From the NCBI GenBank assembly GCA_001825335.1, contig MHWA01000004.1:35341-99340 (forward strand): a stretch of DNA of 64,000 nt, written 5' to 3'. Below the pieces are notes generated by a model, which saw only the letters and a program-made list of their open reading frames with translations, was not told the origin of the DNA and ran no database searches. Source of the stretch: Candidatus Zambryskibacteria bacterium RIFCSPLOWO2_01_FULL_35_19 (GTDB taxonomy: Bacteria > Patescibacteriota > Minisyncoccia > Phycocordibacterales > WO2-35-19). Shown here one piece after another: positions 14,502-34,037 of this stretch (its first letter is position 1; each line of letters begins with the position of its first letter). The position numbers and the translations under genes are program-made.

Positions 14502-15121
14502 TTAATACTGGCTCTGTTTTGGGCGATAGGAGATGGCTTCAAGGATGTGGGAGGGAGTGATTTCAAAAGATGAATCTAGGTCAGCGATGGTGCGGGCCAA
14601 TTTTATTATCTTATGATAAGAGCGAGCAGAAAGATCTAGAGTTTTGGCTGATTTATTCAAAATTTCCTTAACCTCATCTGATATTTTTAAAATAAGAGTG
14701 ATATCTCTAGCGCTCATTTCGGAATTAGTAGCTATTTTTCTATTAGCATCTTTAAATCTTTTTTCTTGAATGTTTCTAGCTTTGACTATCCTATCTCTCA
14801 TCGGGATACTTTCGCTTCTTTCTGCTTTTTCGGTCAGTTTTTCATGGTCTACTTTTGAAACTTCTGTCCATATATCTATACGATCTATTATAGGTCCAGA
14901 AATTTTCCTTTTGTATCTTTCAATTTGCAAAGGCGCACAGGTGCAAGGTTTGCCTTTGATACCGTAGTTGCCACAAGGGCACGGATTCATAGCCGCTATT
15001 AATATAAAATGAGCTGGAAATTTAACGGTACCTTTAGCTCTAGATATAGAGACCACTTTTTCTTCCAATGGCTCTCTTAAAGATTCAATGGCTTTGTTTT
15101 CAAATTCAGGAAATTCATCAA
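14502..15121 (-). pseudogene. comM: 3' fragment (C-terminal half) of a comM/yifB-family gene split by the integrative element
   Basis: Encodes ...LDEFPEFENKAIESLREPLEEKVVSISRAKGTVKFPAHFILIAAMNPCPCG...ISYRPKQSQY, about 90% identical to the C-terminal half of the intact copy at 31416..32951. Homology stops at 15121; the listed ORF (14502..15167) gains a fortuitous Met from element DNA. Confidence 0.7.
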
Positions 15122-15432
15122 GGATGTTCGGTTTGCAAATGGACTTTTTTATGAAGCTGCGCAACACTTTTTTATTTTAAAGAGCCAACTCTTACTCCAC
15201 TTCTATAAGTTTAACAAGTTCTGCAAATTTTGCATAAGTTTTCTACGAACAAGAAATCTTCTACTCTTAAGGAAGCAGTTTTTATTCTGTCATTATGTAT
15301 GCTCGTGCGCGTGAATTAACGTTCAACGTTGCACAGCAGTCATAAAATCCTAACTGTAAACAAGCTGTTAAAACCTAAAAAAGCTTTATTTTAAGGTCTA
15401 TAATATGAATCTAGTGTAAAATAGCGTAAATA

Positions 15433-16938
15433 CTAGAACAAGGTAGACTGCTCTTTGTGTGGATTTGTGGATAACTTTTCTTCCTTTGCAGATAAATTTT
15501 TATGGGGTATATAACTATTGTTTGGATCATTTTTTGATGAAGATGACGACTGCAAAATTCCCCAAGAAATAAGCTCATTTAATTTTCTTAGTGCGTAGGG
15601 TTTAGATTTACCCAATATTTCCTGACATTTTGTTGAGTTTATTTCTTTTTCTTTCTCAACCACTTTTAAAATCTTTTTGTGTTCTGTGTCTAATTTAATA
15701 TTTTTTAAAATTGAATCTGGTATGATAATTTTTTCTCCCCCGTCAACTATAGATTTATCGCCCCCATTAAAGATGACCTGGAACCTGTCTGGAAATTCGC
15801 CAAATTCCGGCTCTTTAAGACCAGCTTCTCCGCAAAGATGTATCATTCTTTTTAATCCCGTTCCCCTTTTATCCATATATCCAAGTTGAACTAACAGGTC
15901 AGCAATAATAGGATTTCTAGTTTTTGGTATAAAATCTCCGGACAAAATAGTTTCTACAGTAAGAGGAGCTATCAGACCTCCAGGATTTTGGATCATAACT
16001 TTTTTACCATGAATCTTCAGCTGAATTTCTGATCCGCTATCACTATAATCTCTATGCGTGATCGCATTGATTACGGCTTCCCTGATTGCCTCAATAGGTA
16101 TATCCGGTATTTCTGTCCTTTCGAAACCTACAACTTTTGCCGAAACTTTTATATTTCTTCTAACAAAACTTTCAAAATCTTTTATTTGTTCGAATATATT
16201 TCCGCTAAATTCAGCTATATCATCCCAATCAGTTGAATCCGGATCAGATTTTGCTTCTGCTCTTATTCTTGAGTTCGGCAAAAAATCCTGAGGTGTTTTT
16301 CCAAATAACAACAATCCGGCTATCGTCGGCTTAGATTCTCCGTTGGTGTTTGTCAAAATTTTCATTCTGCAAAGAAGTTTTATCAAATCATCCCCTATTA
16401 TTTGAGAGCGCTCCCTCTTTTCCAGAGTTACTTTAATGAATTCCAAATCAAGATCTTCAATTGTAGAATTTGTGACTGGTCTATTATCGCACACCTGACT
16501 ATTTCTTCTATATAATTCGGCGATTTCTTCTTCGTTCGCTTCAACATTATTTGAACCTCTGCGTATATAAACTTTCCCGTTTGCCTTATAGGGCGGACTA
16601 TCTCCTCGTTCACAATGAACGATCACGATATGGTGTCCACCATCTTTGAAAAATTCAATCTTTGGAAATGGGTTTGGTTCCGGATTGCATCTGCCTCTTA
16701 TTTTATTAACCAGATTAGATTCTAACGTCTGGGGCAACATTTCACCAAGACCTACAACTTTTCTCTCGTGACCATCCTCTTGTACCCCAAAAATAATTTT
16801 TCCGCCTCTGGTATTATAAAAGGCAACTATAGTTTTTATATCTCTGTCTTTGTCTTCATTCATTCCTAAAGCTGCCCTGAATTCCAGATCATCGTTTTCA
16901 AAATCGTCTAGCAAACTATTAAATTCATCCAAATTCAT
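15433..16938 (-). CDS. COG2865-type ATP-dependent DNA-binding regulator (Schlafen AlbA_2-like N-domain, HATPase_c_4-like C-domain)
   Basis: 501 aa; IVAFYNTRGGKIIFGV...; C-terminal AITHRDYSDSGSEIQLKIHGKKVMIQNPGG. Confidence 0.5.
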   Translation of the reverse strand: MNLDEFNSLLDDFENDDLEFRAALGMNEDKDRDIKTIVAFYNTRGGKIIFGVQEDGHERKVVGLGEMLPQTLESNLVNKIRGRCNPEPNPFPKIEFFKDGGHHIVIVHCERGDSPPYKANGKVYIRRGSNNVEANEEEIAELYRRNSQVCDNRPVTNSTIEDLDLEFIKVTLEKRERSQIIGDDLIKLLCRMKILTNTNGESKPTIAGLLLFGKTPQDFLPNSRIRAEAKSDPDSTDWDDIAEFSGNIFEQIKDFESFVRRNIKVSAKVVGFERTEIPDIPIEAIREAVINAITHRDYSDSGSEIQLKIHGKKVMIQNPGGLIAPLTVETILSGDFIPKTRNPIIADLLVQLGYMDKRGTGLKRMIHLCGEAGLKEPEFGEFPDRFQVIFNGGDKSIVDGGEKIIIPDSILKNIKLDTEHKKILKVVEKEKEINSTKCQEILGKSKPYALRKLNELISWGILQSSSSSKNDPNNSYIPHKNLSAKEEKLSTNPHKEQSTLF

Positions 16939-16992
16939 TAATCAGAGAATACTACTTTTCAGATTCTATTACAATAATTTATGCCATCTGAA

Positions 16993-17295
16993 TCAACAGA
17001 GTTTATTATTTTCAAACATCCAGACGAATTCTTTCAGATTCTTACCCAAAATATAGTATCTAACGCCAGATTTTGTACCCATTCGTATTGGTTTTAGAAT
17101 ATGGCCATAGTAGTTTATGTATTTTATTGTAGTCTTGTAGCTCTTTCTCCAGTAAAAAATTTCTTTTTCGCATATCTGCCTTGCTGAATAGTATTCCGTA
17201 TCTACAGGATCAAACCTGTGCATTGGCTTGTAGGCCTCGCGCGTGCTCCCACGATCCTCGCTGGACTCATTATTTGTGTTTGTAATGGTATTCAT
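16993..17295 (-). CDS. hypothetical protein (100 aa)
   Basis: ORF immediately downstream of the recombinase; no recognisable motif. Confidence 0.3.
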   Translation of the reverse strand: MNTITNTNNESSEDRGSTREAYKPMHRFDPVDTEYYSARQICEKEIFYWRKSYKTTIKYINYYGHILKPIRMGTKSGVRYYILGKNLKEFVWMFENNKLC

Positions 17296-17300
17296 TATCT

Positions 17301-19061
17301 TTAAACTAAAGTTCTGGGGAAATACATTAGGGGGTTGGCTCGGAGTATTTCCGCCTGCCTTGCGGCTAAAGTCATCGTTTTGATGTTTAAGACAAGCGGG
17401 AAACCTTCTTTTTCTTCCGAAACTTTGGAACCAAGCTTAATTGTTGCCGTCTCGGTTGAACTCGGGAAGCGAAAAACAACCGAAGCGTAATCCTCTTTTG
17501 CATAAAGAGTGATCCTTTCAACAAAAAGTCTGACTATTTCCATTTTTTCTTCGTAAGATACATCGTCCAGTCTCACTTTTACTTTTTCGTAAGCTTTTCC
17601 GATAGCCACTTCCCTTTCTGCTTTCTCTTTTTTAGTGAGCAGAGATTGCCTCAATCTGTTCGCTTCGTCATTAAGCTTCTTTTCTTCGGCCCCATTTGAA
17701 TTACTATGCTCACTGTATTTTTCTTTGTCTATTTGACCGTTGATGTAGAGGTCGTCTACTCGGCTTTGTCTAATCTGAACAGACGATAGCTCTACAGCTA
17801 TTTGCTCGAGCCTCTCTTTGACATTCTCCGGGCTTTCTTCCCTATAGATGTATTTCTCCAAAGGGTCAAACATATTCTTTGGATTCTTAAGGATTTCTTT
17901 GAGACATTCCCAGATTGGTTCTAGTCTGGATTCGGCATAAACCGGACACCACTTACAACGCTTTGAAGTACCGATCGGTTTGTCATTGTGATAAGTACCA
18001 TGGTAGTACCTGCCTCCGGCCATAGGCCACTTTTTTGTTGGCGGTTGGTAGCCAGAAAACATTTTGTATCCACACACTCCGCAATATATGAGTTTTGCAT
18101 ACATGTAATCTCTCTTTTGATTTCGCCTTGCAAGTTCTCTGTTTTTTAGAAGTTGTGTTTTTGCCGCTTCAAACATTTCTCTGGTGATTATGGGTTGTGT
18201 CTCCATTGGTATCCAATCCTCTTTCGGTCTAAGCATTCTTTTATCGGTAATGCTTGTGAGATTATTGAATGGTCTTTTGTATTTTCTGTAGAAAAAATTT
18301 CCAGTGTAGGTTTCGTTGGTCAAAATGCGACCGATAGTTCGTTTGTGCCAGTAGTCTAAGGTCTTTCGTTTTTTATACTTAGCAACATACGGAGCTGAAA
18401 CTTTAAGTTGATTCATTCTCTTTTCAATTTCTCGTAAGGGAAGTTTTTCGTCGACTGCCCAATGAAAAAGTTTTTTGACGATTTTGGCTTGTTCCGGTTC
18501 AATAACGAGTCTCTTTGTGGTTTTATCTACTCGGTAGCCGTAAGTCGCAACACCAGTCACAAAGTTTCCTTGTTTAGCGGCCTGAAGTTTGCCACCCAGA
18601 GTTCTCTCGCGAATCATTCCCCTTTCAAACTGAGCAAACATGGCTAGTATTTGCATGACCATTTGTCCAACGGGAGTTGAAGTGTCAATCGGCTCTGTCA
18701 CGGATCGGAAAATAACTTTCAGCGCTTCAAAATGTTCAATGATTCCCAAGAACACTTTTAAGTTTCTGGCCAGACGGTCAATTTTATAAACTAAAACCAC
18801 ATCAAACTCTTTTTGCTCAGCGTCTTTAAGAAGCTGTGTCAGTCCAGTTCTTTTTTCGGGATGGGTGCTACCGGATATAGTGTCTTTGTAGATGTGAGAT
18901 TCTTCAAGTTCAAATCCTTGTGATTTACAGTAGTTTTGTCCTCTTTCAAGTTGTACTTCTGGACCAAAATGTTCTTCATCATCTTGGCCTGTTGTCGAAA
19001 CGCGAATATACAAAGCCGCTTTTAATTTTTTATCCTCTTCTTTTTTAGTTGTCTCTATCAT
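17301..19061 (-). CDS. large serine recombinase (resolvase N-domain, recombinase domain, zinc ribbon, coiled coil)
   Basis: 586 aa; catalytic region ALYIRVSTTGQ; DRLARN; zinc ribbon CGVCGYKM...CKWC; long C-terminal coiled coil. Confidence 0.9.
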   Translation of the reverse strand: MIETTKKEEDKKLKAALYIRVSTTGQDDEEHFGPEVQLERGQNYCKSQGFELEESHIYKDTISGSTHPEKRTGLTQLLKDAEQKEFDVVLVYKIDRLARNLKVFLGIIEHFEALKVIFRSVTEPIDTSTPVGQMVMQILAMFAQFERGMIRERTLGGKLQAAKQGNFVTGVATYGYRVDKTTKRLVIEPEQAKIVKKLFHWAVDEKLPLREIEKRMNQLKVSAPYVAKYKKRKTLDYWHKRTIGRILTNETYTGNFFYRKYKRPFNNLTSITDKRMLRPKEDWIPMETQPIITREMFEAAKTQLLKNRELARRNQKRDYMYAKLIYCGVCGYKMFSGYQPPTKKWPMAGGRYYHGTYHNDKPIGTSKRCKWCPVYAESRLEPIWECLKEILKNPKNMFDPLEKYIYREESPENVKERLEQIAVELSSVQIRQSRVDDLYINGQIDKEKYSEHSNSNGAEEKKLNDEANRLRQSLLTKKEKAEREVAIGKAYEKVKVRLDDVSYEEKMEIVRLFVERITLYAKEDYASVVFRFPSSTETATIKLGSKVSEEKEGFPLVLNIKTMTLAARQAEILRANPLMYFPRTLV

Positions 19062-19650: not shown

Positions 19651-20403
19651 CTATGATTCTGAATTCTTACTCCATTCGTAAGGCCCCAAAGCCAAAAATT
19701 GGGCAACTCGCTCCTCACTGGAGAAAAACCAAGCGACAGTTTGAGTTTCAGCAATTCCCTTCCAGTACTCGTTTTCCCTCACATTTTTGAGAGCACAGAC
19801 AAGCTCCTCTGGCCAATACTCGTTAAATCTTGCTTTGATATTTTCTTTAGCTTCTCTGGTCAATCTTTGTCCAGAACGGATTATGTTTGAATAAAGTGTA
19901 TACATTTTTTCTATTTTCTTTTCTATTGCTTTACTATCTATTGTGCTTGCATTTTGTTCATTACTTAACGCTTGCACTTCGTTCAAGGGGGTGGAGCCAC
20001 TTTTTTCTCCACCCGCCTGAACTTGTTGCAAGACTAGAGTATATTCGCTTGTCCACCCCTTGCGTTTCCTAATCGTGATGAACCCCTTATCTTCTAACTT
20101 ATGAAGTGACGTAACGACTTGTCTGTAGCTGAGACCTGTTCCAGTCCCGATCTTGCCACCGCCATTTGCTATTTGTTCTATGCTCATTGTGTCCGAGTTT
20201 TTCTGGAAGCCCCAGGTTCTGCGTAAGATAAACAAAAGCACTCGTGTTTCAGAGCCATTAAGCAGGTGCATGTATGAATCCAGGAGACGAGGAAACATCC
20301 AGAAATTTTTCTTCATTTCTGGAGGAAAGCCAGGAAATTGTTTGGGGTTGTCTTGCATATTTATTAATCTTCGTCCTTCCCATCCTCTTCTTCTGCGAGC
20401 CAA
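19651..20403 (-). CDS. winged-helix DNA-binding protein, phage replisome-organiser/initiator-like
   Basis: 250 aa; RVLLFILRRTWGF...MSIEQIANGGGKIGTGTGLSYRQVVTSLHKLEDKGFITIRK, which resembles the N-terminal domain of phage replication initiation proteins. Confidence 0.4.
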   Translation of the reverse strand: MARRRRGWEGRRLINMQDNPKQFPGFPPEMKKNFWMFPRLLDSYMHLLNGSETRVLLFILRRTWGFQKNSDTMSIEQIANGGGKIGTGTGLSYRQVVTSLHKLEDKGFITIRKRKGWTSEYTLVLQQVQAGGEKSGSTPLNEVQALSNEQNASTIDSKAIEKKIEKMYTLYSNIIRSGQRLTREAKENIKARFNEYWPEELVCALKNVRENEYWKGIAETQTVAWFFSSEERVAQFLALGPYEWSKNSES

Positions 20404-20693: not shown

Positions 20694-20763
20694 AATTTTA
20701 AATAATTCTTAAGAAGGAGTGTGGGAGCGGACTGACTATTGACCACCCCCAGTTCCTTTACGA

Positions 20764-23994: not shown

Positions 23995-23995
23995 A

Positions 23996-24376: not shown

Positions 24377-24410
24377 ATGTCCGTCCGTTTTTTCTTTACG
24401 AGAGTGACTT

Positions 24411-24528: not shown

Positions 24529-24825
24529 TTTTTGCGTCTCTCCATCCAGATCAGAGGCCTTAACCGGGCAGGCGCATCTTATAGGATGTAAGTAGCGCCT
24601 GTTGTGTAAAAATGTGGTGGCTGATTTAATCCGTCACCTAAGTGAATTTACATAAATCACCACTCCAGAGCGACGCAAGCAGTTCTTCTCTCATAATTCA
24701 ATGTTGGCGAGAATCATGACATGCACGATCCTTCATTAGCCATAAACATTATAGCACCTCAAAAAAATTGCGGCGAAGAAACCAAAGATTCAAAGAATAA
24801 ATATCAAAGTATCAAGAGAGAAAAA

Positions 24826-25809
24826 TCAGCGGAGGGAAACAACACCCAAATTGCCGTCGCGATGCCCTGGGTCATCGTCGTTGACGTCGACGCCGCTGCG
24901 GCCAGCGTCGCCGAGATCCACAAGCCTGCCGTCAGAGGAAAGGGTGTTAGACCAGTCATAGTTTGCTTCCAAAATGCCCCTTTCTTTCCTATTTCTAAAC
25001 TGCAAAACCCAGTCATACAATATTTCCGCCGGAATACGCCTATGGTTTTTATTTATCAAAAGTTCCGAAAGTTTCCTTGCCACTTCTTTCCAATTTTTAT
25101 CATAATCTTCGTCAAGCATTTTTTGGAGTCCTTCAAGAAGTTCGTCGGTACATTCTTCTTGTTCTTCCTTTGAAACGGAATCCAAACCCATAAGATAATC
25201 GCGTAACACCTTGGTTTGTTCTATATAATTTTTACTGGTGGAATCGGGCACAAAATTTTTGCCAACCAGTTTCCATTCGGTCCTTAAAGAAGCGTTTTTG
25301 AAAAAATCTTCAGTTTGATACCAGCCTATGTCGTAAAGCAATTTTTCCTGTTCTTCTTCGCTATCTTCCTCTAAAATTGCTTGCATGAGTCCATTCATTC
25401 TCTCCATAGTCATAGGAGATCCTTCTCCATCGCTTTCTACCCGTAGCACAAGCATTTCTCCGTTCCCCTTAGCTTTTTCAAGTATTTCAGGACTATATGG
25501 AATGGCTGGCACTTTTTCTTGAGGGAATTCAAATCTAAAAGTACTCTTTATTTCTTCAACTCCATAAAAACTATCGCTCATGATCTCTTGGGCTTGTTCA
25601 TAAGAAGTTTCAATTCCTTCACTTGTTTTTTTATTACCAACACCAAGTTCTTGTTTAAGTTTTATATATTTTTCTTTTATAGCCTTGAGTTCCTGGACGC
25701 TTAAAGAGTTAAGCTCTCGGCCTTTTTGGATGACAGTTATTTCTTCAACAATTTTAGAGCCGAGCTCGCTCTCTTTTTCGGGATTTGTGGTTTTAGGTGC
25801 ACCTTCCAT
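24826..25809 (-). CDS. DGR target protein 1 (short paralog, C-terminal variable module)
   Basis: 327 aa; the C-terminal ~150 aa are paralogous to target 2; ends ...DLGDAGRSGVDVNDDDPGHRDGNLGVVSLR. Confidence 0.7.
   Translation of the reverse strand: MEGAPKTTNPEKESELGSKIVEEITVIQKGRELNSLSVQELKAIKEKYIKLKQELGVGNKKTSEGIETSYEQAQEIMSDSFYGVEEIKSTFRFEFPQEKVPAIPYSPEILEKAKGNGEMLVLRVESDGEGSPMTMERMNGLMQAILEEDSEEEQEKLLYDIGWYQTEDFFKNASLRTEWKLVGKNFVPDSTSKNYIEQTKVLRDYLMGLDSVSKEEQEECTDELLEGLQKMLDEDYDKNWKEVARKLSELLINKNHRRIPAEILYDWVLQFRNRKERGILEANYDWSNTLSSDGRLVDLGDAGRSGVDVNDDDPGHRDGNLGVVSLR
24829..24946 (-). repeat. DGR variable repeat VR1
   Basis: Begins immediately 5' of the stop codon; differs from the TR only at TR adenines (Asn AAC becomes Asp, Ser or Gly). 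Confidence 0.8.
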
Positions 25810-25905
25810 ATTTTTGCTTATTTAAAGCCAGTATATCATAAAAATTTTCGCGGAAAAACCAAAGGAACAAAGGGAAAAGATCAAAGGTTCAATATGAGAA
25901 AAGAA

Positions 25906-28290
25906 CTAGCGGAGGGAAACAACACCCAAATAGTCGTAGCGTAGCCCTGGGTAATCGTTGTTGACGTCGACGCCGTCGCGGTCAGCGAGGCCGAGATCCA
26001 CAAGCTCGCCGTAAGAGGAAAGGGCTGCTGTCCAATCATAGGTCTTCTCCAAAATTCGCTCATTATTGCCCTTTATGGAGAGCAAGATGTCATAAAGGAC
26101 TTCTGGCGGCAGTCTCCTGTGATTTTTGTTCACGGTAAGCTCAGAGAGTCTTCTAGCCGCCTCCTGCCAGTCTGATTTCATAATTTCGTTAATTTCTTCA
26201 AGAACTTTATCGGAACATTCTTTGGCCTCATCTTCAGTCAGAGATCCCAGTGATATTAAATATTCGCGCAATATTTTTGTTTGCTCTATATAATTTGTGG
26301 ATCCTTCAGCTTTACCGCCATAAGAAGTAGTCACCGACTCAGGAAGAGGAGCTTTGGTTGTAAGCCTCCATTTCAAGCGAGGATGAGTATTTGGAATTGG
26401 CGTGCCATCTTTATTGATTCCGGTGTAAAACGGCTCATCTTTATACCAACAACTACTTTCTAACTTTGCTGCACCAGATTTATCTTGTCCATACAAAACC
26501 TTAATTTTTTCTCCAGTAGCAGGATCGATCAATTCAGGAATCATTTCAAGCATATGAGATATGGTAAGGAACTTACCTTCTGAGTCTTTATCAACTCCGA
26601 GTACAAGCATTTCTCCATTCTCCTTGGCCTTTTCAAGATCATCCGGCGAATATGGCATATCTGGAATATCTTCAAGAGCCACTTTGATACCAAAAGTCTT
26701 TTCAATTTTTTCAGGTCCCATATAGTCTTTGCCCAACATTTCTTTTGCTAATTCCATTTTTTTAAGCAAAGTATCAGGTGAAGTTCTTCTCTCCGGCTTT
26801 GATAGTTTACCACTGGCCTCAACTTCTGCTTTCAGTTTTTCAATATCTTTAATGAGCCCAGCCTTTTCTGGAGATATACCGGCAGTTTCTAAGCTTTTTC
26901 TTTTTGATTCTCCCGGCTTAGGTTTGTATTCCACTAATCTTATAAGCTCCCCGAGCTTTTTTCTGTCAGCGTCACTCTCCAATTTATTGGCGTAATAATA
27001 ACGGAGAGCTTGTTGCATGGTTTCGTTAATATCTCCATTATAAAATCTCAAAATAAAATCTCTGACTCTACGAGGTTCCATACGATCATCGTAAGTGAAA
27101 GGTTGAGGCTGATCTTCAGCAATTTTTCTATTTTTCAAAAGCTCTTTGGCCGCTTTATGAAATTCTTTAAATTTTTCCAAAACTTCAGGCAGTCCTTGAA
27201 TATCTTGGAGTTGCTCTGTTGTTAAACCTTCACCTCTGGCTCTGAGGAACATGTCAGGAGTTATATTTTGCGTTCCAGCTCCTATTCCAAAAAGGGCGTC
27301 TGTTGAAAATGAGAACGTGCCTTCTGGAAGTTCGGTTGGCAGTTTTTTGTAAACCCATCTTCGGAGTTGGGCAGGATCTAGTGGTTCACGACCAAAATAT
27401 CCTTTGCCTGGAGGGTTCATCAGGGCAATAATTTTGGTCTTCTCTTTATTCACAGCTACAGCTTCTGAAGCATCTTCAGACAATACGACATCTCCACCCC
27501 TTTCAAGAGAATCTAAAACTTCATGGAGACGAATGAGAATGTTTGGGGCTGAAGCGTTGAATTCGTCCAATATAATTATTTTTGTCTTGCCTTCTTCTTG
27601 CCTCAAACCGCTTGTTACTTTGCCGTCTGCAAAAATATATTCAGGATCTTCAGGTTTATTTTTGTGAGGATTGGGAATGTATCTCCCCATCAAATCTTCA
27701 ACATCAGTTGCCCCGTTGAGGTTCGCATAATGAATCTCCCAACCAAGTTCAGCTGCCATCTTTTTAACCGTTGTGGTTTTGCCTAGAGATGTTCCACCAT
27801 CAACAAGCAGAGGCTCACCGCTTACAAACGCCACAGCGATATCTCTTTGCAAAGGCAAAGCCACTTCTTTGTCATTTATAAAATCTTGGTATTGCTCTCT
27901 TCTTGGTATAAATTGACCATTACCATTTTTTGCTTTCTCCAAACCAACTCCAAGATAAGAAACGCTGCTTTCAGTTTCTTCAATAGAATTTTCAGTTATG
28001 GGAATAATCTCTACAAATAATTTACCGCTCATGGGATCCTCCGGATTGGTGTCTTCCACAACTCTAACCTTATACGGATATCCAGGCTCCGGTACTGGAG
28101 AAGATTTTGCCAAAATAATAATTTTCCTGCTTGGAGAACTGCTTTTATATTCCTTTTCGCCACTCTTTTTTTGCTGTTCTTCAAATATGACATCATCAAT
28201 AAAATTGCCCCCTTCTTGTGTCCCCACATTTTCTATTTTAGCCTTATTTTTAGGGTCAAAATTGATATTTTCCATTTCAGTGCTTGACAT
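25906..28290 (-). CDS. DGR target protein 2: MoxR/AAA_5-family ATPase fused to a DGR-diversified C-terminal module
   Basis: 794 aa; Walker A GGTSLGKTT; Walker B KIIILDEFNASAPNILIRLHEVLD (the DEFN matches MoxR DEINRA); sensor region IIALMNPPGKG...DPAQLRRW; the C-terminus ...DLGLADRDGVDVNNDYPGLRYDYLGVVSLR carries VR2. Confidence 0.75.
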   Translation of the reverse strand: MSSTEMENINFDPKNKAKIENVGTQEGGNFIDDVIFEEQQKKSGEKEYKSSSPSRKIIILAKSSPVPEPGYPYKVRVVEDTNPEDPMSGKLFVEIIPITENSIEETESSVSYLGVGLEKAKNGNGQFIPRREQYQDFINDKEVALPLQRDIAVAFVSGEPLLVDGGTSLGKTTTVKKMAAELGWEIHYANLNGATDVEDLMGRYIPNPHKNKPEDPEYIFADGKVTSGLRQEEGKTKIIILDEFNASAPNILIRLHEVLDSLERGGDVVLSEDASEAVAVNKEKTKIIALMNPPGKGYFGREPLDPAQLRRWVYKKLPTELPEGTFSFSTDALFGIGAGTQNITPDMFLRARGEGLTTEQLQDIQGLPEVLEKFKEFHKAAKELLKNRKIAEDQPQPFTYDDRMEPRRVRDFILRFYNGDINETMQQALRYYYANKLESDADRKKLGELIRLVEYKPKPGESKRKSLETAGISPEKAGLIKDIEKLKAEVEASGKLSKPERRTSPDTLLKKMELAKEMLGKDYMGPEKIEKTFGIKVALEDIPDMPYSPDDLEKAKENGEMLVLGVDKDSEGKFLTISHMLEMIPELIDPATGEKIKVLYGQDKSGAAKLESSCWYKDEPFYTGINKDGTPIPNTHPRLKWRLTTKAPLPESVTTSYGGKAEGSTNYIEQTKILREYLISLGSLTEDEAKECSDKVLEEINEIMKSDWQEAARRLSELTVNKNHRRLPPEVLYDILLSIKGNNERILEKTYDWTAALSSYGELVDLGLADRDGVDVNNDYPGLRYDYLGVVSLR
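25909..26026 (-). repeat. DGR variable repeat VR2
   Basis: Same structure as VR1; about 14 adenine-specific differences from the TR. Confidence 0.8.
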
Positions 28291-28494
28291 TATAACTCAT
28301 ATTTGCTATAATATACCCAGAATAGTTCTTTAAATTGTCTGGAAGGTTTTGAAAGAAGTACGACGGGACGCTGGCTAGCCATGCCAAACTCCCCCAAACA
28401 AAACGCGCCAGACCTAGCCACGGTCCGGGACGCACCCCAGCCTCTTTAAAAAGAAGGGGCTTTTTTTTATTTAAAAATGAAAATTTTTGAGTAT

Positions 28495-28902
28495 TCATGA
28501 TTGATATGCCGGACCGCAATTGGCTAATATATTCCAGCCTTTGTCTTGAAGTTTATTCAAATCTTCTTTCAAAACAAGAAAAATCACACAGCCATTGGTA
28601 TAGTCTGGAGAAAACGTTTTTGATTCCATCACGTTATTATCAAAAATTTCCACTTGGCCTGTAGGATACTGAATCAGGAAATCATAAAAATCTTTGCTCA
28701 TATTTTCGCCTGCAACAAGATATGTTTTGGCAGAATTAAATAGATCTGAAATATTATCTGATCGTTTGAATCCTTCGCTCTCCATTGCTCCCGAAAAATC
28801 GCTCAATTGATCTCTGTCTTGGGCTATAATTAGCCCCACTTCTTTTTGGCCAAAAGTTGCCTTAAGAAAATCGGTAAATTCTTTGTTTTCAGTTTCTTTC
28901 AT
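28495..28902 (-). CDS. hypothetical protein (135 aa) between the VWA and MoxR genes
   Basis: Plausible composition; no motif. Confidence 0.3.
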   Translation of the reverse strand: MKETENKEFTDFLKATFGQKEVGLIIAQDRDQLSDFSGAMESEGFKRSDNISDLFNSAKTYLVAGENMSKDFYDFLIQYPTGQVEIFDNNVMESKTFSPDYTNGCVIFLVLKEDLNKLQDKGWNILANCGPAYQS

Positions 28903-28916
28903 ACAGCTTATTTATA

Positions 28917-31202
28917 CTAAAAATTCTGATAATTGGCAATCACTTCTTTTATAAGGTCAGCCAACTTCTCAGCCATTTCTTCCACTTTAACATTTGCAAT
29001 GCTATTTGGATAATATCTGCCAACATGATCGGTCCCCCCACCTATACCCAAACCTATCAAACGAATATCGCTTTCTTCAAGCACTTGTTTGATCATTTTC
29101 CCAAGTTCATATTTTGTCCTCGGATGCATTGAGGATTCCTCAGGTGTGCCATCAGACATGACAATCAAAAATTTCTGATCGGCTTTTTGTTTCTCTAATC
29201 TTTTTGAGGCTTGCTCCAATGCCCAGCCGTCATCATTCCATCTGGCCTTCCCTGTATCGCTAGTATCGTTTACCTCTTGAAGCATGCCTCCCATATGCTC
29301 TCTTATAATTTTGGACATCTGCTCTCCAAAATCTTGATACTCATACATGCGATCATTAAATCCAAGTATTTCAAGATTTATAGATAAGCGGTTTAAAACT
29401 TCCGACAAAACAATAACGGCTTTGAAAGTTTCTTCTATTTTATTTCCGTTGGACATAGAACCGGAAAGATCAACCAATATGGAAATAGCGTAATCTTTTT
29501 CTTTTGGAAGTTCTCTTTTTTGCCAAGCTTTGCTCTCCATAGCCGGAACAGATTTGGCTTTCTCTTGAATCCTTCTTTTAATATCAATCCGCTTGCCGGT
29601 AGTGAAGCCGCTTTTCCAGCCTCTGGCTCTACGCTCGACGAATATCTCTCTCAAATCATTTTCAAGTTTGTCTATGAGCGGAAGGACTTCTTTTCTCATT
29701 CGTTCATAAACATTTTCGTCCTTTTTTAATTCTTTAGCTACTCTGTCTTTGTATTTTTTTAATTCTTCCTCATCAACTTCTTGTGTTTCTCTTCCGGTTT
29801 TTGTTTCTTGCTCAACTTCTTGTTTTGGCTTAACTTCGGCATCTCGTTCCGCCTTCTTTTCCGGATTATCAGAAAGTTTGCCTTGCAACTCTTCATTAAG
29901 AGCCTCCTCAAATTCTTTCATGGCTTTTTCAGCCTTATCTTTTATTTCTTTTTGCTCTCCTTCCGGGAGAGACTGGATATACTCTTTTATCTTTTGTTTT
30001 AAATCTTCAGAAAGAGAGTCTAAATCTATAGGTTTGGTTCCCGGGGATTGTTGTCCTTCCGTATCCTGTGGTTCACCTTCTCCAGCTGATTCGGAAGACT
30101 CTTCAGATTTTTCTCCTTTCTCTCCTTCAGCTTGTTGCTTTTCTTTCTCTGCTTTTTCTTTAGCCTCCTGTTGCTCCTTTTTGGCCTGTTCAATGGCTTT
30201 CTTTATGGCCTCCTCTAAAGCTTGCTGCTCTTCCGGAGTTAATTTATCTTTCAGTTCTTGTGGCATTCCTTTTTCTCCTTTTTCTTCGCCTCCGTCTTTT
30301 TCTTTCTGCATATCCTTTAACAATTCTTCCATTTTTTGATCTTCCATATCAGCTTCAACCAATTTTTTAAACTCTGGCCATATTTGATCTCGATTTATTT
30401 GATACGAAAGCTCGGCATATTTTCTGATCAACCCTTCGCTTTTGTCAGCCTCTTGTCTAGAAGGATATCTGAGCCAGGAATCTTGGGCCGATAACAGAGT
30501 CGCTTCAACTGCAGTTTTAACTTCCTCCGGCAAATCTGGAGACAATTCAAAATCTTGCTCTTTAGTTTCTCTAAACCATTGTTTAATATATTCAAATCCG
30601 GCCTGCATAAAGCGGGGCTTATATCCAAGTTTTTGCTCGGCTTTTTCTTTGGCCTTGGCTTCAAAATCCAAATCTTGTTCATAGGCCAAACCCATTTGTT
30701 CTCCAAATTTAGGATAACTTTCAGCCACAAAGTTATTGTCTCTTGGGTCTTCTATAGAATTCATCATGAAAGAAAACCCCGGTTGCTTCCATTCTTCCAA
30801 AGGAATAAAATCAGTCCGGCTGATTCTTCTGTGGCCGCCTTCATGAGAAATGACAAATCTTAAATAATCCATCGGTTTTTCCAAAAGATCTTTAGGATCA
30901 ATTCGTATTATGTTATTTTTAAAATCCCAATACCAACCGCCACCAGATTCATTAAGCTCAATTGGAATACGAAAATCTTTGCCTATGAAATACGCAAGAG
31001 AAGAGAGGGTCTGTTGTTTTTGTTTTATTTCTTCCTGCTGTTCAGGAGTAAACTCCGCAAGAATTTGTTTTTCTCTTTCTGGTTTCAGAGCTTTATATAT
31101 CTGCTCCGGCATTTCCGCAGTTTCGTTTTCAGGTATTTTGCCGTCTAATTTAATGCCCTCCATAAAATTGATTATAACTATATTGTGTCGCAAATTGGAC
31201 AA
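28917..31202 (-). CDS. DUF2201-like protein: N-terminal HExxH metallopeptidase-like domain, long K/E-rich coiled region, C-terminal VWA domain with MIDAS motif
   Basis: 761 aa; VISHEGGHRRISR (HExxH); VWA ISILVDLSGSM (DxSxS) ... LIVMSDGTPEE; this is the classic partner type of MoxR ATPases. Confidence 0.65.
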   Translation of the reverse strand: MSNLRHNIVIINFMEGIKLDGKIPENETAEMPEQIYKALKPEREKQILAEFTPEQQEEIKQKQQTLSSLAYFIGKDFRIPIELNESGGGWYWDFKNNIIRIDPKDLLEKPMDYLRFVISHEGGHRRISRTDFIPLEEWKQPGFSFMMNSIEDPRDNNFVAESYPKFGEQMGLAYEQDLDFEAKAKEKAEQKLGYKPRFMQAGFEYIKQWFRETKEQDFELSPDLPEEVKTAVEATLLSAQDSWLRYPSRQEADKSEGLIRKYAELSYQINRDQIWPEFKKLVEADMEDQKMEELLKDMQKEKDGGEEKGEKGMPQELKDKLTPEEQQALEEAIKKAIEQAKKEQQEAKEKAEKEKQQAEGEKGEKSEESSESAGEGEPQDTEGQQSPGTKPIDLDSLSEDLKQKIKEYIQSLPEGEQKEIKDKAEKAMKEFEEALNEELQGKLSDNPEKKAERDAEVKPKQEVEQETKTGRETQEVDEEELKKYKDRVAKELKKDENVYERMRKEVLPLIDKLENDLREIFVERRARGWKSGFTTGKRIDIKRRIQEKAKSVPAMESKAWQKRELPKEKDYAISILVDLSGSMSNGNKIEETFKAVIVLSEVLNRLSINLEILGFNDRMYEYQDFGEQMSKIIREHMGGMLQEVNDTSDTGKARWNDDGWALEQASKRLEKQKADQKFLIVMSDGTPEESSMHPRTKYELGKMIKQVLEESDIRLIGLGIGGGTDHVGRYYPNSIANVKVEEMAEKLADLIKEVIANYQNF

Positions 31203-31415: not shown

Positions 31416-32951
31416 TTAATATTGTTGTTTTGGTCTGTAAGAAATAGCTTCTAAAATATGGGAAGAAGAAATCTCAATGGAAGATTCTAGATCCGCAATG
31501 GTACGAGCCAACTTAATGATTTTGTGATAACTCCTAGCAGAAAGATCTAAAGTTTTTGCCGATCTGTTTAAAATCTCTTTTACTTCGTCTGATATTTTTA
31601 AAATGAGAGTAATATCTCTAGCATTCATTTCAGAGTTAGTAGATATTTTTCTACCAGCATTTTTGAATCTTTTTTCTTGAATATCTCTCGCCTTCATTAT
31701 TCTTTCCCTTGCTGGGATACTCTCACTCTTTTCGGCTTTCTCTGTTAATTTTTCATGATCTACCTTTGAAACTTCTGTCCATATATCTATACGATCTATT
31801 ATGGGTCCAGATATTTTTCTCTTGTATCTTTCAATTTGAAGCGGTGCGCAAGTACACGGTTTACCTTTTATTCCAAAATTTCCACACGGACAAGGATTCA
31901 TAGCGGCTACGAGTATGAAGTGCGCAGGAAACTTTACGGTGCCTTTGGCTCTTGAAACCGAAACAACCCTTTCTTCTAACGGCTCTCTCAAAGCTTCGAT
32001 TGCTTTATTTTCAAATTCTGGAAATTCGTCAACAAATAATATTCCCTTGTGGGCTAAAGTGACTTCCCCCGGCCTCGGATTAGTACCACCACCAATCAAA
32101 GCAACATAAGAGGCTGTGTGGTGAGGAGATCTAAAAGGTCTCTCTGCTACTAAACTATCATTCAAGGCGCCAGTCATAGAATGTATTTCTGTCACCTCTA
32201 AAGCTTCTTCAAATGAAAGTGGTGGTAGAATACCAGGCAGAGCTTTGGCGAGCATAGTTTTTCCTGTTCCAGGAGGTCCATAAAGAGCGATGTTGTGTCC
32301 GCCAGCCGCGGCTATCTCCAAAGCCCGTTTAGCTGATTCTTGACCTTTAATATCGGCAAGATCAAGAGAAATGTTATGCAAATTTTTTATCTCTTTTTTC
32401 TTTTCTTGTTTTAGCTTTTGGTTTATATCAGTATCATGGGCAACATGATTTATAATTTCCACCAAAGTTTCTGCTCCAAAAACAGCAATGCCGTCAACAA
32501 GAGCTGCTTCTGGAGCGTTTTCCACTGGTAGATATATTTCTCTGAAACCTTTTTCTTTTGCCTTACGAGCAAATGCTAAAGCTCCTTTTACGGATCGCAA
32601 ACCTCCGTCAAGTGAGAGCTCTCCAAGAAAAATTTTGTCTTTAGAATCAAACAGAATATCTCCGCTTGCTAACAAATATGACAAAGCAATAGCAACGTCT
32701 AAACCAGATCCTTCTTTTCTGACTTCAGCTGGTGCTAAAGATATAACAACTTTATGATTTTTTGACTTTGGGGATTCAAAACCAGAATTCTTAACAGCAG
32801 CGCTTATTCTATCTTTAGCTTCTTCAACGGCCTTATCACCTAGTCCAACTATTGAGAAAGAATTCAATCCTCTGGAAAGATCAGCCTCCACATCAACAAT
32901 ATATGGTTTGAGAAGTGAAGCTTGAGCACTGTGAACTTTAGCATATGACAT
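31416..32951 (-). CDS. comM: Mg-chelatase-like AAA+ ATPase ComM/YifB (intact copy, inside the element)
   Basis: 511 aa; N-terminal Lon-like domain; Walker A YGPPGTGKTMLAKAL; ILFVDEFPEF; Cys cluster MNPCPCGNFGIKGKPCTCA. Confidence 0.85.
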   Translation of the reverse strand: MSYAKVHSAQASLLKPYIVDVEADLSRGLNSFSIVGLGDKAVEEAKDRISAAVKNSGFESPKSKNHKVVISLAPAEVRKEGSGLDVAIALSYLLASGDILFDSKDKIFLGELSLDGGLRSVKGALAFARKAKEKGFREIYLPVENAPEAALVDGIAVFGAETLVEIINHVAHDTDINQKLKQEKKKEIKNLHNISLDLADIKGQESAKRALEIAAAGGHNIALYGPPGTGKTMLAKALPGILPPLSFEEALEVTEIHSMTGALNDSLVAERPFRSPHHTASYVALIGGGTNPRPGEVTLAHKGILFVDEFPEFENKAIEALREPLEERVVSVSRAKGTVKFPAHFILVAAMNPCPCGNFGIKGKPCTCAPLQIERYKRKISGPIIDRIDIWTEVSKVDHEKLTEKAEKSESIPARERIMKARDIQEKRFKNAGRKISTNSEMNARDITLILKISDEVKEILNRSAKTLDLSARSYHKIIKLARTIADLESSIEISSSHILEAISYRPKQQY

Positions 32952-33127
32952 ATTGTACTTTTATAATAACAAATTTTCTGAACACTTTTTCGCGAAGAAG
33001 CGGAGGCCTTCCTATACAGGCCATATACTGCCTCTTTTTTTTATTGCTTTTACAAACCGACCATCAATTTGTTCGTACCGCTAAACAGCATATACCCCTC
33101 TTTCCAAGCCGACTATTAGAAAGAGCA

Positions 33128-34037
33128 CTCCTTTGTGAGCTAAAGTAACTTCGCCCGGCTTTATATTGCTCCCCCCTCCGATGATAGCTACATGAGAAGC
33201 AGTGTGATGCGGAGAACGAAAAGGTCTCTCAAAAACCAATATGTCATTTAAAAATCCAGACATAGAATGAATCTCTGTCACTTCTAAAATTTCATCAAAT
33301 GAAAGCGGAGGCAAAATACCAGAAAGAGCTTTGGCCAACATTGTTTTACCTGTCCCCGGTGGTCCATAAAGAGCGATATTGTGTCCACCAGCAGCTGCTA
33401 TTTCCAAAGCTCGTTTAGCTGATTCTTGACCTTTAATATCTGCCAAATCAAGCGAAATATTTCTCAAATTTTTAATCTCTCTTTTCTTTTCTTGTTTTAT
33501 TTTTTGATTTATATCAGTATCGTGAGCAATATGATTTATTATTTCCTGTAAAGTTTCTGCCCCGAAAACAGCAATACCCTCTACCAAAACGGCTTCTGGA
33601 GCATTTTCAATTGGCAAATATATTTCCCTGAAGCCCTTTTCTTTAGCTTTACGAGCAAAAGCCAAAGCTCCCTTGACTCTCCGCAATCTACCATCAAGTG
33701 AAAGTTCTCCCAAAAAAATCTTGTCTTTAGAATCAAAAATAATATCACCACTGGCTAATAGATATGAAAGAGCAATAGCCACATCCAGACCAGAGCCCTC
33801 CTTTTTAACCTCGGCAGGAGCAAGGGAGATCACCACTTTGTGATTTTTTGATTTTGGAGATTCAAAACCGGAGTTTTTAACGGCTGCACTAATCCTATCT
33901 TTGGCTTCATCTACCGCCTTGTCTCATAAGCCAACAATAGAAAAAGAATTCAGACCGCGAGAGAGATCTGCTTCTACGTCAACAATATAAGGTTTTAAAA
34001 GTGATGCTTGAGCGCTGTGAACTTTGGCGTAAGACAT
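33128..34037 (-). pseudogene. comM: 5' fragment (N-terminal portion) of the disrupted comM, decayed
   Basis: MSYAKVHSAQ...IVGL*DKAV... has an in-frame TGA at 33924-33926; ~88% aa identity to the intact copy up to LAHKGVLF, then diverges into element-border sequence. Confidence 0.7.

What the first reader, a model, noticed from the sequence alone, without database searches (positions are those of the whole stretch)
14502..34037. ~18-kb serine-recombinase element integrated inside comM, with attL/attR-like junctions sharing a CT dinucleotide
The ORF at 14502..15167 is the C-terminal half of a ComM/YifB ATPase, starting at ...LDEFPEFENKAIE. The region 33128..34037 is the matching N-terminal portion, from MSYAKVHSAQ to LAHKGVLF, with an in-frame TGA. 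Joined, they reconstruct one gene (...LAHKGVLF-L-DEFPEF...). It is ~88-90% identical, not 100%, to the intact comM at 31416..32951, so this is an insertion rather than a recent assembly duplication.

Homology to comM stops at 15121 and resumes at 33128. On the minus strand both junctions carry CT, from Leu codons CTA and CTT. The element-side arms form an imperfect inverted repeat (TCGG.TTG.AAA). Together these are what a large-serine-recombinase attP x attB product should look like.

The element encodes the LSR (17301..19061), a COG2865 regulator, a winged-helix initiator-like protein, the DGR and the MoxR-VWA module. comM is a known hotspot for island integration in other bacteria. Here the competence gene of a presumed naturally transformable CPR cell is interrupted.
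Basis: partly seen in the sequence, partly recalled or inferred. Interest (0 to 1): 0.8.

Follow-up and report, generated by a model that had tools for sequence, protein, structure and literature searches.

The report
Serine-recombinase island splitting comM, with spare
An 18-kb mobile element has inserted itself into the middle of a DNA-recombination gene (comM) of a tiny groundwater bacterium, but it brings its own working copy of that gene and carries two alternative docking sites, tuned to the two spellings of the target codon, which has not been described for this kind of integrase.

Summary
Window 14502-15120 and 33120-34037 are the two halves of one comM. Joined at a shared CT they give 1539 nt in frame. 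Five related species have a single uninterrupted comM at the same locus, which is the empty site.

The 17,997-bp insert carries a complete large serine recombinase (LSR). LSR insertion into comM is already known: about 12% of predicted site-specific LSRs target it. That core is a new member of a known kind.

1. About 35 of 57 loci encoding relatives of this LSR (37-93% identity) in Parcubacteria metagenomes break comM at this same Walker-B codon.
2. The element keeps a second intact attP with a TT core (33042-33091), 52 bp inside attL. A sister element in another species entered a TTG-codon comM through that site and kept the CT site intact. Arrays with CT, TT and AT cores recur in the family and track the host codon.
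3. The intact comM (31416-32951) lies inside the insert. It belongs to a clade of element-borne copies under strong purifying selection. Its target codon is GTT (Val), which matches neither attP core.

So comM function is probably replaced, not lost. The host copy already carries a fixed TGA. Everything here is in silico.

The parts
14502..15120 (-). C-terminal fragment of the host comM (from the third base of the Leu codon, then DEFPEF..., to the stop)
   Evidence: Translation. Pfam Mg_chelatase 111-206/207 plus Mg_chelatase_C. blastn to the intact copy, 78.6%.
15097..15146 (-). attR: P1 arm AAGTCCATTTGCAAACCGAACATC (15146-15123), core CT (15122-15121), B' arm TGATGAATTTCC... (15120-15097)
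   Evidence: The P arm fits the family half-site consensus. The same P1-CT-P1' site is intact in the sister element L091.
15433..16938 (-). Cargo: Schlafen AlbA_2 plus HATPase_c_4 protein (COG2865-like)
   Evidence: Pfam. PADLOC partial matches to pAgo-associated Aga_SIR2-PNTD models. Among 57 related loci it is found only in L109, so it is variable cargo.
16993..17295 (-). Conserved 100-aa ORF immediately downstream of the LSR; candidate accessory or directionality factor (not tested)
   Evidence: No Pfam or PHROG hit. Homologues sit next to the LSR in 19 of 57 related loci.
17301..19061 (-). Large serine recombinase, 586 aa
   Evidence: Pfam Resolvase 3.6e-38 and Recombinase 4.3e-18. PHROG integrase 2.9e-104. 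Invariant Y18-R20-S22 and four Cys (C327, C330, C369, C372) in the 27-sequence alignment. PDB sequence matches to SPbeta integrase over residues 59-515 and to TP901-1 integrase.
19651..20403 (-). Replication-initiator-like winged-helix protein (RepO-like); part of the conserved backbone
   Evidence: Pfam Phage_rep_O 1.2e-5, below the curated cut-off. PHROG replication initiation O-like 3.7e-12. Homologues in 16 of 57 related loci.
22969..26055 (-). DGR cargo: RT 22969-23994 (-), bAvd 23882-24376 (+), TR 24397-24556, VR1 24816-24975 (3' end of ORF 24826-25809), VR2 25896-26055 (3' end of ORF 25906-28290)
   Evidence: Pfam RVT_1 and bAvd. Three-copy 160-nt repeat. Inside the conserved core of the repeat the TR/VR differences fall at TR adenines (read from the printed sequences).
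25906..31202 (-). Cargo: AAA_5 (MoxR-like) ATPase 25906-28290, small ORFs, VWA/CobT_C protein 28917-31202
   Evidence: Pfam. The same comM-VWA-AAA_5 order is present in the related element L151.
31416..32951 (-). Element-borne full-length comM. The codon at the crossover position is GTT (Val, 32033-32031) instead of Leu.
   Evidence: It is 97% and 95% aa identical to the comM carried at the same position by elements L148 and L151. dS is about 1.1 and dN/dS 0.025-0.04 within this group; against host copies dS is 2.1 or more, or too saturated to estimate.
32952..33041 (-). Leader between the attP array and the first cargo gene; its first ~60 nt (A-run, GGCC...GGCC hairpin, ...CGAAAAA) are conserved in the family
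   Evidence: Alignment A2 of seven elements, including ones without comM. Function unknown. No Rfam match.
33042..33091 (-). Second, intact attP (attP2): ATGCTGTTTAGCGGTACGAACAAA - TT - GATGGTCGGTTTGTAAAAGCAATA, core 33067-33066
   Evidence: It is the only full site found by the half-site matrix in the whole 64-kb window. Its P2 arm forms attR and its P2' arm forms attL of the sister element in the Hainich contig. TT-core sites lie 51-52 bp inside attL in L099, L102, L103 and L110.
33094..33143 (-). attL: B arm TTAGCTCACAAAGGAGTGCTCTTT (33143-33120), core CT (33119-33118), P1' arm AATAGTCGGCTTGGAAAGAGGGGT (33117-33094)
33120..34037 (-). N-terminal fragment of the host comM (306 codons), with a nonsense codon TGA at 33926-33924 (Gly38 position)
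   Evidence: The TGA is present in all ten independent contigs: each shows one mismatch in 307 residues against a query in which I had replaced the stop by Gly.

Best explanation
Window 15121-33119 is a 17,997-bp integrative element. It has no recognisable virion or conjugation genes. Its backbone is a RepO-like protein, the LSR and a 100-aa ORF. Its large serine recombinase inserted it into the host comM at the Leu codon of the Walker-B segment (...HKGVLF-L-DEFPEF...), by a 2-bp staggered exchange at CT between attP1 and attB. The insertion is shown by the junctions and by the empty site in related species.

The element has a tandem attP array: attP1 with a CT core and attP2 with a TT core, 52 bp apart. 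LSRs need identical core dinucleotides in attP and attB. I infer that the two sites let the same element enter comM genes that spell this Leu as CTN or as TTR. It is shown that a sister element used the TT site in a TTG host and kept the CT site intact.

The element also carries its own full-length comM just inside attL. Its codon at the crossover is GTT (Val) and its B arm is altered. I infer that this copy replaces the function of the split host gene. I also infer that it is not a substrate for the element's own attP sites, which would otherwise delete part of the element.

In this species the insertion is fixed and the split host copy has begun to decay (TGA). The element-borne comM is probably now the only functional one.
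For: Junctions and in-frame rejoining.

Empty site: L011, L012, L013, L014 and L059 have S12-S7-EF-G-PNPase-(335 aa)-DksA-like followed by one intact comM. Where the locus extends that far (L012, L013, L059), PGA_cap follows downstream. None of these loci has any element gene.

LSR: domains and catalytic motif.

Family-wide target: of 57 metagenome loci with LSR relatives (37-93% identity), about 35 show a comM C-fragment that starts exactly at this codon, or an N-fragment that ends there.

Dual attP, direct test: I predicted from L091 that the Hainich contig would have an attL of the form B-TT-P2'. L148 shows GGGGTTTTGTTT-TT-GATGGTCGG.

Dual attP, statistics: 9 of 13 TT-type attR have a second P arm of at least 15.9 bits 45-72 nt upstream (null P<0.008). 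It is followed by CT in 8 and AT in 1. None of 18 CT-type attR has one. TT-core sites lie 51-52 nt inside five CT-type attL (WIN, L099, L102, L103, L110), with P-arm scores of 6.4-12.3 bits. L116 has AT at +52 and TT at +109. No second site scoring 6 bits or more follows any of 5 distinct TT-type attL.

Unintegrated arrays with both sites intact: L095, L136, L147.

Host codon at the site in 74 related species: CTN 37, TTR 27, ATG 10.

Element-borne comM is present in three elements with partly different cargo. These copies are monophyletic and under purifying selection. Their codons are GTT, GTT and GCT, whereas 110 of 120 closest homologues have Leu.
Against: Everything is sequence inference; no recombination was observed.

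No empty site or circular junction was found for this species itself. All contigs examined carry the integrated state.

The TT crossover is ambiguous by one base, because TTG is shared between attP2 and attB.

Val and Ala alleles also occur in chromosomal comM at the native locus of other organisms (P0150, P0169, P0145, P0123). The recoded codon is therefore not specific to elements and could simply be inherited from the donor.

Some family members show only one recognisable attP (L122, L127, L141).

Expression of the element-borne comM is not shown. The simple scan found no sigma-70-like site on the comM strand in the leader.
Confidence: 0.8

Rival explanations
1. Reversible regulatory switch ('active lysogeny', as with Listeria phi10403S in comK, or B. 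subtilis SPbeta in spsM and skin in sigK). The element would excise under particular conditions and rebuild a functional host comM.
For: The LSR reading frame, attL and attR are intact. A conserved small ORF next to the LSR could be a directionality factor. Unintegrated arrays exist for other family members.
Against: The N-terminal fragment has an in-frame TGA in all independent contigs, so excision would not restore a working gene. The element supplies its own comM under purifying selection, which makes restoration unnecessary. No excised form or empty site of this element appeared in the 23 contigs read on either side.
Confidence: 0.07
2. The intact comM is a host paralogue from a tandem duplication, not element cargo. 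An unrelated element then hit one of the two copies, or a rearrangement produced the present order.
For: The two copies are adjacent, in the same orientation and 90.6% identical in protein.
Against: The intact copy lies between attL and attR. Related species have one comM at this locus. The same comM lineage sits at the same position, about 100-170 bp from the att array, in the Hainich element and in L151. Those elements have different hosts, partly different cargo, and in the Hainich case a different attP was used. Synonymous sites between the two window copies are saturated (dS about 2.2), whereas dS is about 1.1 among element-borne copies.
Confidence: 0.04
3. The second palindromic site (33042-33091) is not an alternative attP. 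It would be a regulatory or architectural LSR-binding site, or a relic of an earlier tandem insertion.
For: Its arms score lower against the half-site matrix (9 and 12 bits) than many sites in the family. No recombination at it has been seen in this genome.
Against: Its two arms are the element-side arms of attR and attL of the sister element in the Hainich contig. The presence or absence of the extra site next to attL or attR follows the host codon class across the family. Cores of 42 intact sites are CT 19, TT 13, AT 5, GC 2, GT 1 and TG 1, although the core is not part of the scoring matrix.
Confidence: 0.08

Closest known systems
LSR-carrying mobile elements that target Mg-chelatase/comM homologues (Durrant et al. 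2022, PMC10083194)
   Same: A large serine recombinase, a conserved site inside the comM (YifB/Mg-chelatase-like) coding sequence, and a 2-bp core. That paper reports this gene family as the target of 12.4% of predicted site-specific LSRs and reports enrichment of competence genes among targets.
   Different: The parts of that paper I read do not mention several attP sites per element, cores that follow the target codon, or an element-borne copy of the target gene. Whether its data set includes Parcubacteria elements was not checked.
Listeria A118/phi10403S in comK; B. subtilis SPbeta (SprA) in spsM and skin (SpoIVCA) in sigK
   Same: LSR-mediated insertion in the middle of a coding sequence of a competence or differentiation gene. 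attL and attR flank a split gene that can be rejoined in frame (PMC3556126 and PMC5499854, abstracts; the rest is my own knowledge).
   Different: Those elements restore the gene by excision and do not carry a replacement copy. Here the split gene has a fixed nonsense codon and the element carries a complete substitute. No phage structural genes were recognised, and there are no relatives in IMG/VR.
AbaR/AbGRI and other islands in Acinetobacter comM (PMC11472951)
   Same: comM as an insertion hotspot, interrupted in the Mg-chelatase domain. That paper proposes that blocking ComM protects elements from being cured by transformation.
   Different: Those islands are mostly Tn7-like transposons, not LSR elements, and they inactivate comM. 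The window's element brings a functional-looking comM, which does not fit a simple 'block transformation' rationale.
Engineered orthogonal attP/attB pairs with altered central dinucleotides (phiC31, Bxb1; PMC3936721, PMC10083194)
   Same: One LSR and several att sites that differ only in the core dinucleotide. Core identity decides which attP pairs with which attB.
   Different: Those are laboratory constructs. Here arrays of two or three attP sites with different cores occur naturally on one element and correlate with the codon of the natural target.
Integrating elements that rebuild their target (tRNA-gene integrating phages and islands; SXT in prfC) - from my own knowledge
   Same: The element compensates for the damage caused by its own insertion.
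   Different: Those elements duplicate only the displaced gene end within attP. Here a whole xenologous gene is carried, with the recombination site recoded.

Membership tests
Large serine recombinase (serine integrase) | N-terminal resolvase-type catalytic domain with the Ser nucleophile | tested here: met
   PF00239, E 3.6e-38, residues 15-166. Y18, R20 and S22 are invariant in 27 homologues.
Large serine recombinase (serine integrase) | Large C-terminal part: recombinase domain plus zinc-ribbon domain | tested here: met
   PF07508, E 4.3e-18. Four invariant Cys: C327, C330, C369, C372. phmmer match to SPbeta integrase over residues 59-515. The coiled-coil was not examined separately.
Large serine recombinase (serine integrase) | attP and attB of about 40-50 bp with imperfect inverted-repeat arms, unrelated to each other except for a 2-bp non-palindromic core; no other target duplication | tested here: met
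   The shared sequence at the two junctions is exactly CT. attP1 arms match 16/30 and attB arms 11/30. The half-site consensus is conserved across the family.
Large serine recombinase (serine integrase) | A recombination directionality factor for excision | not tested
   The only candidate is the conserved 100-aa ORF 16993-17295. It has no family hit.
Large serine recombinase (serine integrase) | Catalytic activity on the proposed sites | not testable with these tools
   Needs a recombination assay.
comM-targeting LSR elements (as in PMC10083194) | Insertion inside a Mg-chelatase/YifB/ComM coding sequence, with an uninterrupted homologue in related genomes | tested here: met
Excision-dependent gene switch (active lysogeny / phage regulatory switch) | Excision rebuilds an intact, functional target gene | tested here: not met
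   The rejoined ORF contains TGA at codon 38 in all contigs.
Excision-dependent gene switch (active lysogeny / phage regulatory switch) | Excised and empty-site forms coexist with the integrated form in populations | tested here: not met
   Only the integrated form appears among the contigs read on either side. Assemblies are an insensitive test; raw reads were not available.
Prophage | Virion, packaging or lysis genes | tested here: not met
   Pfam and PHROGs give only an integrase, a RepO-like protein and a 'helicase' label for the Schlafen protein. The LSR family is absent from IMG/VR. Several small ORFs have no hits, so absence is not proven.
Diversity-generating retroelement (cargo) | RT, Avd, and a TR/VR pair whose differences fall at TR adenines | tested here: met
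   There are two VRs. The adenine pattern was read by eye from the printed repeat copies; mismatches over the full 160 nt include the diverged flanks.

The most novel reading that the evidence does not exclude
The attP arrays (CT, TT, AT, and in some elements GC or GT cores) and the host's choice of codon at the Walker-B hydrophobic position (Leu CTN, Leu TTR, Met, Val, Ala) are two sides of an arms race. Hosts would escape by respelling or replacing one codon. Elements would answer by adding attP sites with matching cores. One element lineage would go further by carrying a recoded comM, which makes the host dependent on the element once the split copy decays.

If so, this would be a natural multi-specificity design for serine integrases. 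It would also be a new way for an element to become indispensable, by replacing the gene it destroys.
Probability: 0.45. Interest if true: 0.85.

Novelty: new variant of a known kind. Interest (0 to 1): 0.72.

Why it matters
LSR insertion into comM is the commonest predicted LSR target, so that part alone is ordinary.

Two features are not described in the papers I could search. One is a natural tandem attP array whose cores follow the synonymous and near-synonymous spellings of one target codon. The other is an element-borne, recoded full copy of the target gene.

If confirmed, they would show three things.
- How a strictly site-specific integrase widens its host range without loosening its specificity.
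- That nature already uses the 'orthogonal core dinucleotide' trick used in genome engineering. This family would supply ready-made sets of sites for one enzyme.
- A route by which an element replaces a host gene and becomes hard to lose.

The finding also documents a widespread family of integrative elements in Parcubacteria (CPR), whose mobile elements are poorly known. It bears on the debate over why mobile elements target competence genes.

Tried and rejected
1. Simple palindrome scoring of the regions next to attL and attR barely exceeded the null distribution (null mean 10.3/20) and missed asymmetric sites. I replaced it with a half-site weight matrix built from the arms actually used.

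2. I predicted that all Val/Ala comM alleles would be element-borne. This was refuted: P0150, P0169, P0145 and P0123 are at the native chromosomal locus.

3. I searched for the free or empty form of this very element through exact-protein look-ups of the DksA-like neighbour and the COG2865 protein. Only integrated copies were found. The look-up with the PGA_cap ORF found nothing, probably because the called start codon differs.

4. Circularity of short element contigs: no terminal repeats.

5. IMG/VR scan with the LSR alignment: no relatives.

6. The leader has no Rfam match, and the simple scan found no promoter or terminator on the comM strand in the leader.

7. The ~3.8-kb extra segment beside the tmRNA is not an integrase-bearing island. 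It has a Na/Ca exchanger gene and ORFs without hits.

8. Literature searches for comM with Patescibacteria, natural multi-attP arrays, or serine integrase with Walker B returned nothing relevant. 'Two attP sites' returned engineered systems or papers unrelated to natural elements. The library is incomplete, so prior description cannot be excluded.
Full report
**1. What is in the window**

On the minus strand the order is as follows.
- A DksA-type zinc-finger gene (34423-34055).
- A comM N-terminal fragment (34037-33120).
- An 18-kb insert.
- A comM C-terminal fragment (15120-14502).
- A PGA_cap gene (14033-13233).

The N-fragment ends ...GCTCACAAAGGAGTGCTCTTT-CT-AATAGTCGG. The C-fragment begins ...CCGAACATC-CT-TGATGAATTTCC. 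Joining them at the shared CT gives 1539 nt in one frame, 512 codons. The product is 90.6% identical in protein and 79% in DNA to the intact comM at 32951-31416. The bases on either side of CT differ between the two junctions, so the common core is exactly 2 bp. The N-fragment has an in-frame TGA at 33926-33924.

The window is contig LBPL01000003.1 of assembly GCA_000990165.1. One source names the LSR's organism as Parcubacteria group bacterium GW2011_GWC1_34_10. The same arrangement appears in ten contigs shown from independent metagenomes on the attL side (23 contigs read). It also appears in all six places shown on the attR side (23 read). An assembly artefact is therefore excluded, and the insertion, including the TGA, looks fixed in this species.

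**2. Empty site**

A scan of one genome per species with the rejoined ComM found five close relatives: L011, L012, L013, L014 and L059, at 74-90% identity. All five show the same upstream synteny (EF-G and the 335-aa protein in most, then the DksA-like gene) followed by one uninterrupted comM. Where the locus extends far enough (L012, L013, L059), PGA_cap follows downstream. None of the five has any gene of the insert. The site encodes the Walker-B strand of the AAA+ domain (VLF-L-DEF).

**3. The recombinase and the element**

ORF 19061-17301 is a 586-aa large serine recombinase.
- It has the Resolvase and Recombinase Pfam domains.
- It matches a PHROG integrase family at 2.9e-104.
- Y18/R20/S22 and four Cys are invariant in 27 homologues.
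- It matches solved SPbeta and TP901-1 integrases by sequence.

The remaining genes of the insert are listed here.
- A Schlafen-AlbA_2/HATPase_c_4 protein.
- A conserved 100-aa ORF.
- A RepO-like protein.
- Several small ORFs without hits.
- A DGR: RT, Avd, TR and two VRs. Inside the conserved core of the repeat the differences fall at TR adenines.
- An AAA_5 ATPase and a VWA protein.
- A full-length comM.

No virion or transfer genes were recognised, and the LSR family has no relatives in IMG/VR. G+C is 0.387 in the insert, 0.348 in the flank beyond 34038 and 0.375 in the flank below 14502.

**4. The whole LSR family targets this codon**

An alignment of LSR homologues retrieved 57 metagenome loci at 37-93% identity. 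In about 35 of them a comM C-fragment starts exactly at the codon before DEFPEF, 0.1-3 kb downstream of the LSR. Where the contig is long enough, an N-fragment ends at ...HxGxLF. Element sizes range from about 8 to 25 kb.

The shared backbone is the RepO-like protein (16 loci), the LSR (57) and the 100-aa ORF (19). The DGR, the MoxR-VWA pair and the Schlafen gene are variable cargo.

The element-side arms share a half-site, consensus TTTGTGGGAC-N7-core. In the window's subgroup it reads TTTGCAAACCG-N-core.

Published work already reports Mg-chelatase/comM homologues as the commonest LSR target: 12.4% of predicted site-specific LSRs, with competence genes enriched among targets (PMC10083194). 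comM is also a known insertion hotspot in Acinetobacter and other bacteria (PMC11472951). The bare finding is thus a new member of a known kind.

**5. A second attP**

*The lead.* The closest relative is in a Hainich groundwater contig of 121,749 bp, held as L091 and L148, with an LSR 93% identical. Upstream of its comM C-fragment the sequence reads P1(GTTCATTTGCAAACCGAACGTC)-CT-P1'(AAAAGTCGGCTTGGAAAGAGGGGTA)...P2(GCTGTTTAGCGGTACGAACAAA)-TT-GGATGAATTTCC. This is an intact copy of the window's attP1, followed 52 bp later by a junction with comM at a TTG Leu codon. The same 55 bp follow attL in the window (33119-33065, 92.7% identical). There they continue as ...ACGAACAAA-TT-GATGGTCGGTTTGTAAAAGC.

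*Prediction and result.* I predicted that the other end of the Hainich element would read N-fragment-TT-GATGGTCGG. It reads GGGGTTTTGTTT-TT-GATGGTCGGTTCATAAATG. The window's element and its sister therefore carry the same tandem array, attP1 with a CT core and attP2 with a TT core. The window's element entered a CTT host through attP1. The sister entered a TTG host through attP2.

*The pattern holds across the family.* I used a weight matrix built from the arms actually used; the core is not part of it.
- 9 of 13 TT-type attR have a second strong P arm (at least 15.9 bits, null P<0.008) 45-72 nt upstream. It is followed by CT in 8 and AT in 1. None of 18 CT-type attR has one.
- Five CT-type attL (WIN, L099, L102, L103, L110) have a TT-core site 51-52 nt downstream, with P-arm scores of 6.4-12.3 bits. 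L116 has AT at +52 and TT at +109. None of five distinct TT-type attL has a second site scoring 6 bits or more.
- L132 has intact CT and TT sites and used an AT site in a host with ATG.
- L096 sits in a GCC (Ala) codon through a GC core.
- L092 and L093 have an intact GC-core site, and L094 an intact GT-core site.
- Three contigs (L095, L136, L147) carry both sites intact with no comM fragment. These are unintegrated copies.

Among 42 intact full sites the cores are CT 19, TT 13, AT 5, GC 2, GT 1 and TG 1. The matrix finds only one full site in the whole 64-kb window, which is attP2.

Among 74 uninterrupted comM genes of related species the codon at the crossover is CTN in 37, TTR in 27 and ATG in 10. 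LSRs require identical cores in attP and attB (established knowledge; PMC3936721, PMC10083194). A CT plus TT array would therefore cover about 86% of potential hosts, against 50% for CT alone. This functional reading is inference.

**6. The intact comM is cargo**

It lies between attL and attR, 166 bp from the attL core. The Hainich element carries a 97%-identical comM at the same place, although its cargo is copper-resistance genes instead of the DGR and MoxR-VWA genes. L151 carries a 95%-identical one followed by VWA-like and AAA_5 genes.

The three element-borne copies are each other's closest relatives: 83-85% nt identity, dS about 1.1, dN/dS 0.025-0.04. Against any host copy dS is 2.1 or more, or too saturated to estimate. 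This includes the split copy in the same genome (dS about 2.2). The two split host copies differ from each other by dS 1.69. This points to a long-standing, selected component of one element lineage, not a recent duplication.

At the crossover the codons are GTT, GTT and GCT. By contrast 110 of the 120 closest homologues have Leu. The B arm is also changed (GGAATATTATTT against GGAGTGCTCTTT). A comM with a cognate core sitting next to attP would be a substrate for intramolecular attP x attB recombination. A recoded codon therefore looks like a precondition for carrying the gene (inference).

The recoded codon is not exclusive to elements. P0150, P0169, P0145 (Val) and P0123 (Ala, 94% identical to the element copy) are at the native chromosomal locus. 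The element may have taken its comM from such a host, or such hosts may have acquired the allele from an element by homologous recombination. I cannot tell which.

**7. Consequences**

The competence/recombination gene is interrupted only formally. A complete ComM with intact Walker A and a conservative Walker-B change is supplied by the element. The split copy has a fixed nonsense codon. Excision would therefore leave the cell without a functional comM, which argues against a reversible switch and for dependence on the element.

This also sits awkwardly with the idea that elements hit comM in order to block curing by transformation. That idea may still hold for the many family members that carry no comM.

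**8. Limits**

- No experiment and no raw reads were available.
- The TT crossover position is ambiguous by one base.
- Some family members show a single site.
- Expression of the element-borne comM and the role of the conserved leader (32952-33041) are unknown.
- The literature library is incomplete, so the novelty of points 5 and 6 rests on negative searches.

Noticed in passing
window 22969-28290: The DGR has two variable repeats. VR2 (25896-26055) forms the 3' end of the 794-aa AAA_5 (MoxR-like) ORF and VR1 forms the 3' end of a 327-aa ORF without hits. The bAvd gene (23882-24376) lies on the opposite strand to the RT, TR and both targets. A diversified C-terminus on an AAA+ ATPase is unusual.
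   Followed up: partly
window 33924-33926: The only defect in the split comM is a TGA at a position where the other copies have Gly (GGN). It is fixed in all ten independent contigs. It is most simply a GGA-to-TGA nonsense mutation. TGA is read as Gly in some CPR lineages (code 25), but I saw no sign of that here and did not test it.
   Followed up: partly
window 9046-13232: There is a tmRNA gene at 9046-9461 (+). The ~3.8 kb between it and PGA_cap is absent from related species, where PGA_cap lies close to the tmRNA-side genes. The segment holds a Na/Ca-exchanger gene (9656-10630). It also holds a stretch of 46-48% G+C (11-13 kb) whose ORFs have no family hits. No integrase and no other Rfam match were found.
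   Followed up: partly
window 32952-33041; L095, L099, L102, L103, L148, L151: A leader after the attP array is conserved (A8-GAGGC...GGCC...GGCCTC...TTCGCGAAAAA, with a hairpin). It is present even in elements that do not carry comM. No Rfam match was found and its function is unknown.
   Followed up: partly
window 16993-17295; 19 related loci: A 100-aa ORF without any family hit sits directly after the LSR gene in a third of the family. It is a candidate recombination directionality factor.
   Followed up: no
L092 12620, L093 2757, L094 2949, L096 2386: Well-formed palindromic attP-like sites with GC or GT cores occur in elements whose LSR is 65-71% identical to the window's. One element (L096) is integrated at a GCC (Ala) codon. 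These cores would match the Val/Ala comM alleles that escape CT and TT sites.
   Followed up: partly
L102, L116 (also L110, L099): Whole contigs begin and end about 100-190 nt inside the comM fragments; for L102, L116 and the right end of L110 the overhang is about 125 nt. That is about the length of an assembler k-mer. It suggests graph forks where occupied and empty comM alleles coexist in the same sample, which would mean insertion polymorphism.
   Followed up: no
L148 11680-21456 (Hainich contig Hain_H43_01um_R1_38): The sister element (~24.8 kb) carries copper and metal resistance cargo: a CsoR-like repressor, YHS proteins, an HMBD P-type ATPase, a multicopper oxidase, Zip and YibE_F. This replaces the DGR and MoxR-VWA genes, on the same backbone and with the same element-borne comM.
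   Followed up: partly
window 15433-16938: The Schlafen-AlbA_2/HATPase_c_4 protein gives partial PADLOC matches to pAgo-associated Aga_SIR2-PNTD models (E 1e-26) and weak CARF matches. It may be a defence-related cargo gene rather than a regulator.
   Followed up: no
L152, L153-L155, L156, P0123 contig: Chromosomal comM genes at the native locus of other Parcubacteria have Val or Ala instead of Leu at the crossover codon. These are possible integration-resistant host alleles. P0123 is the third-closest known relative of the element-borne copy.
   Followed up: partly
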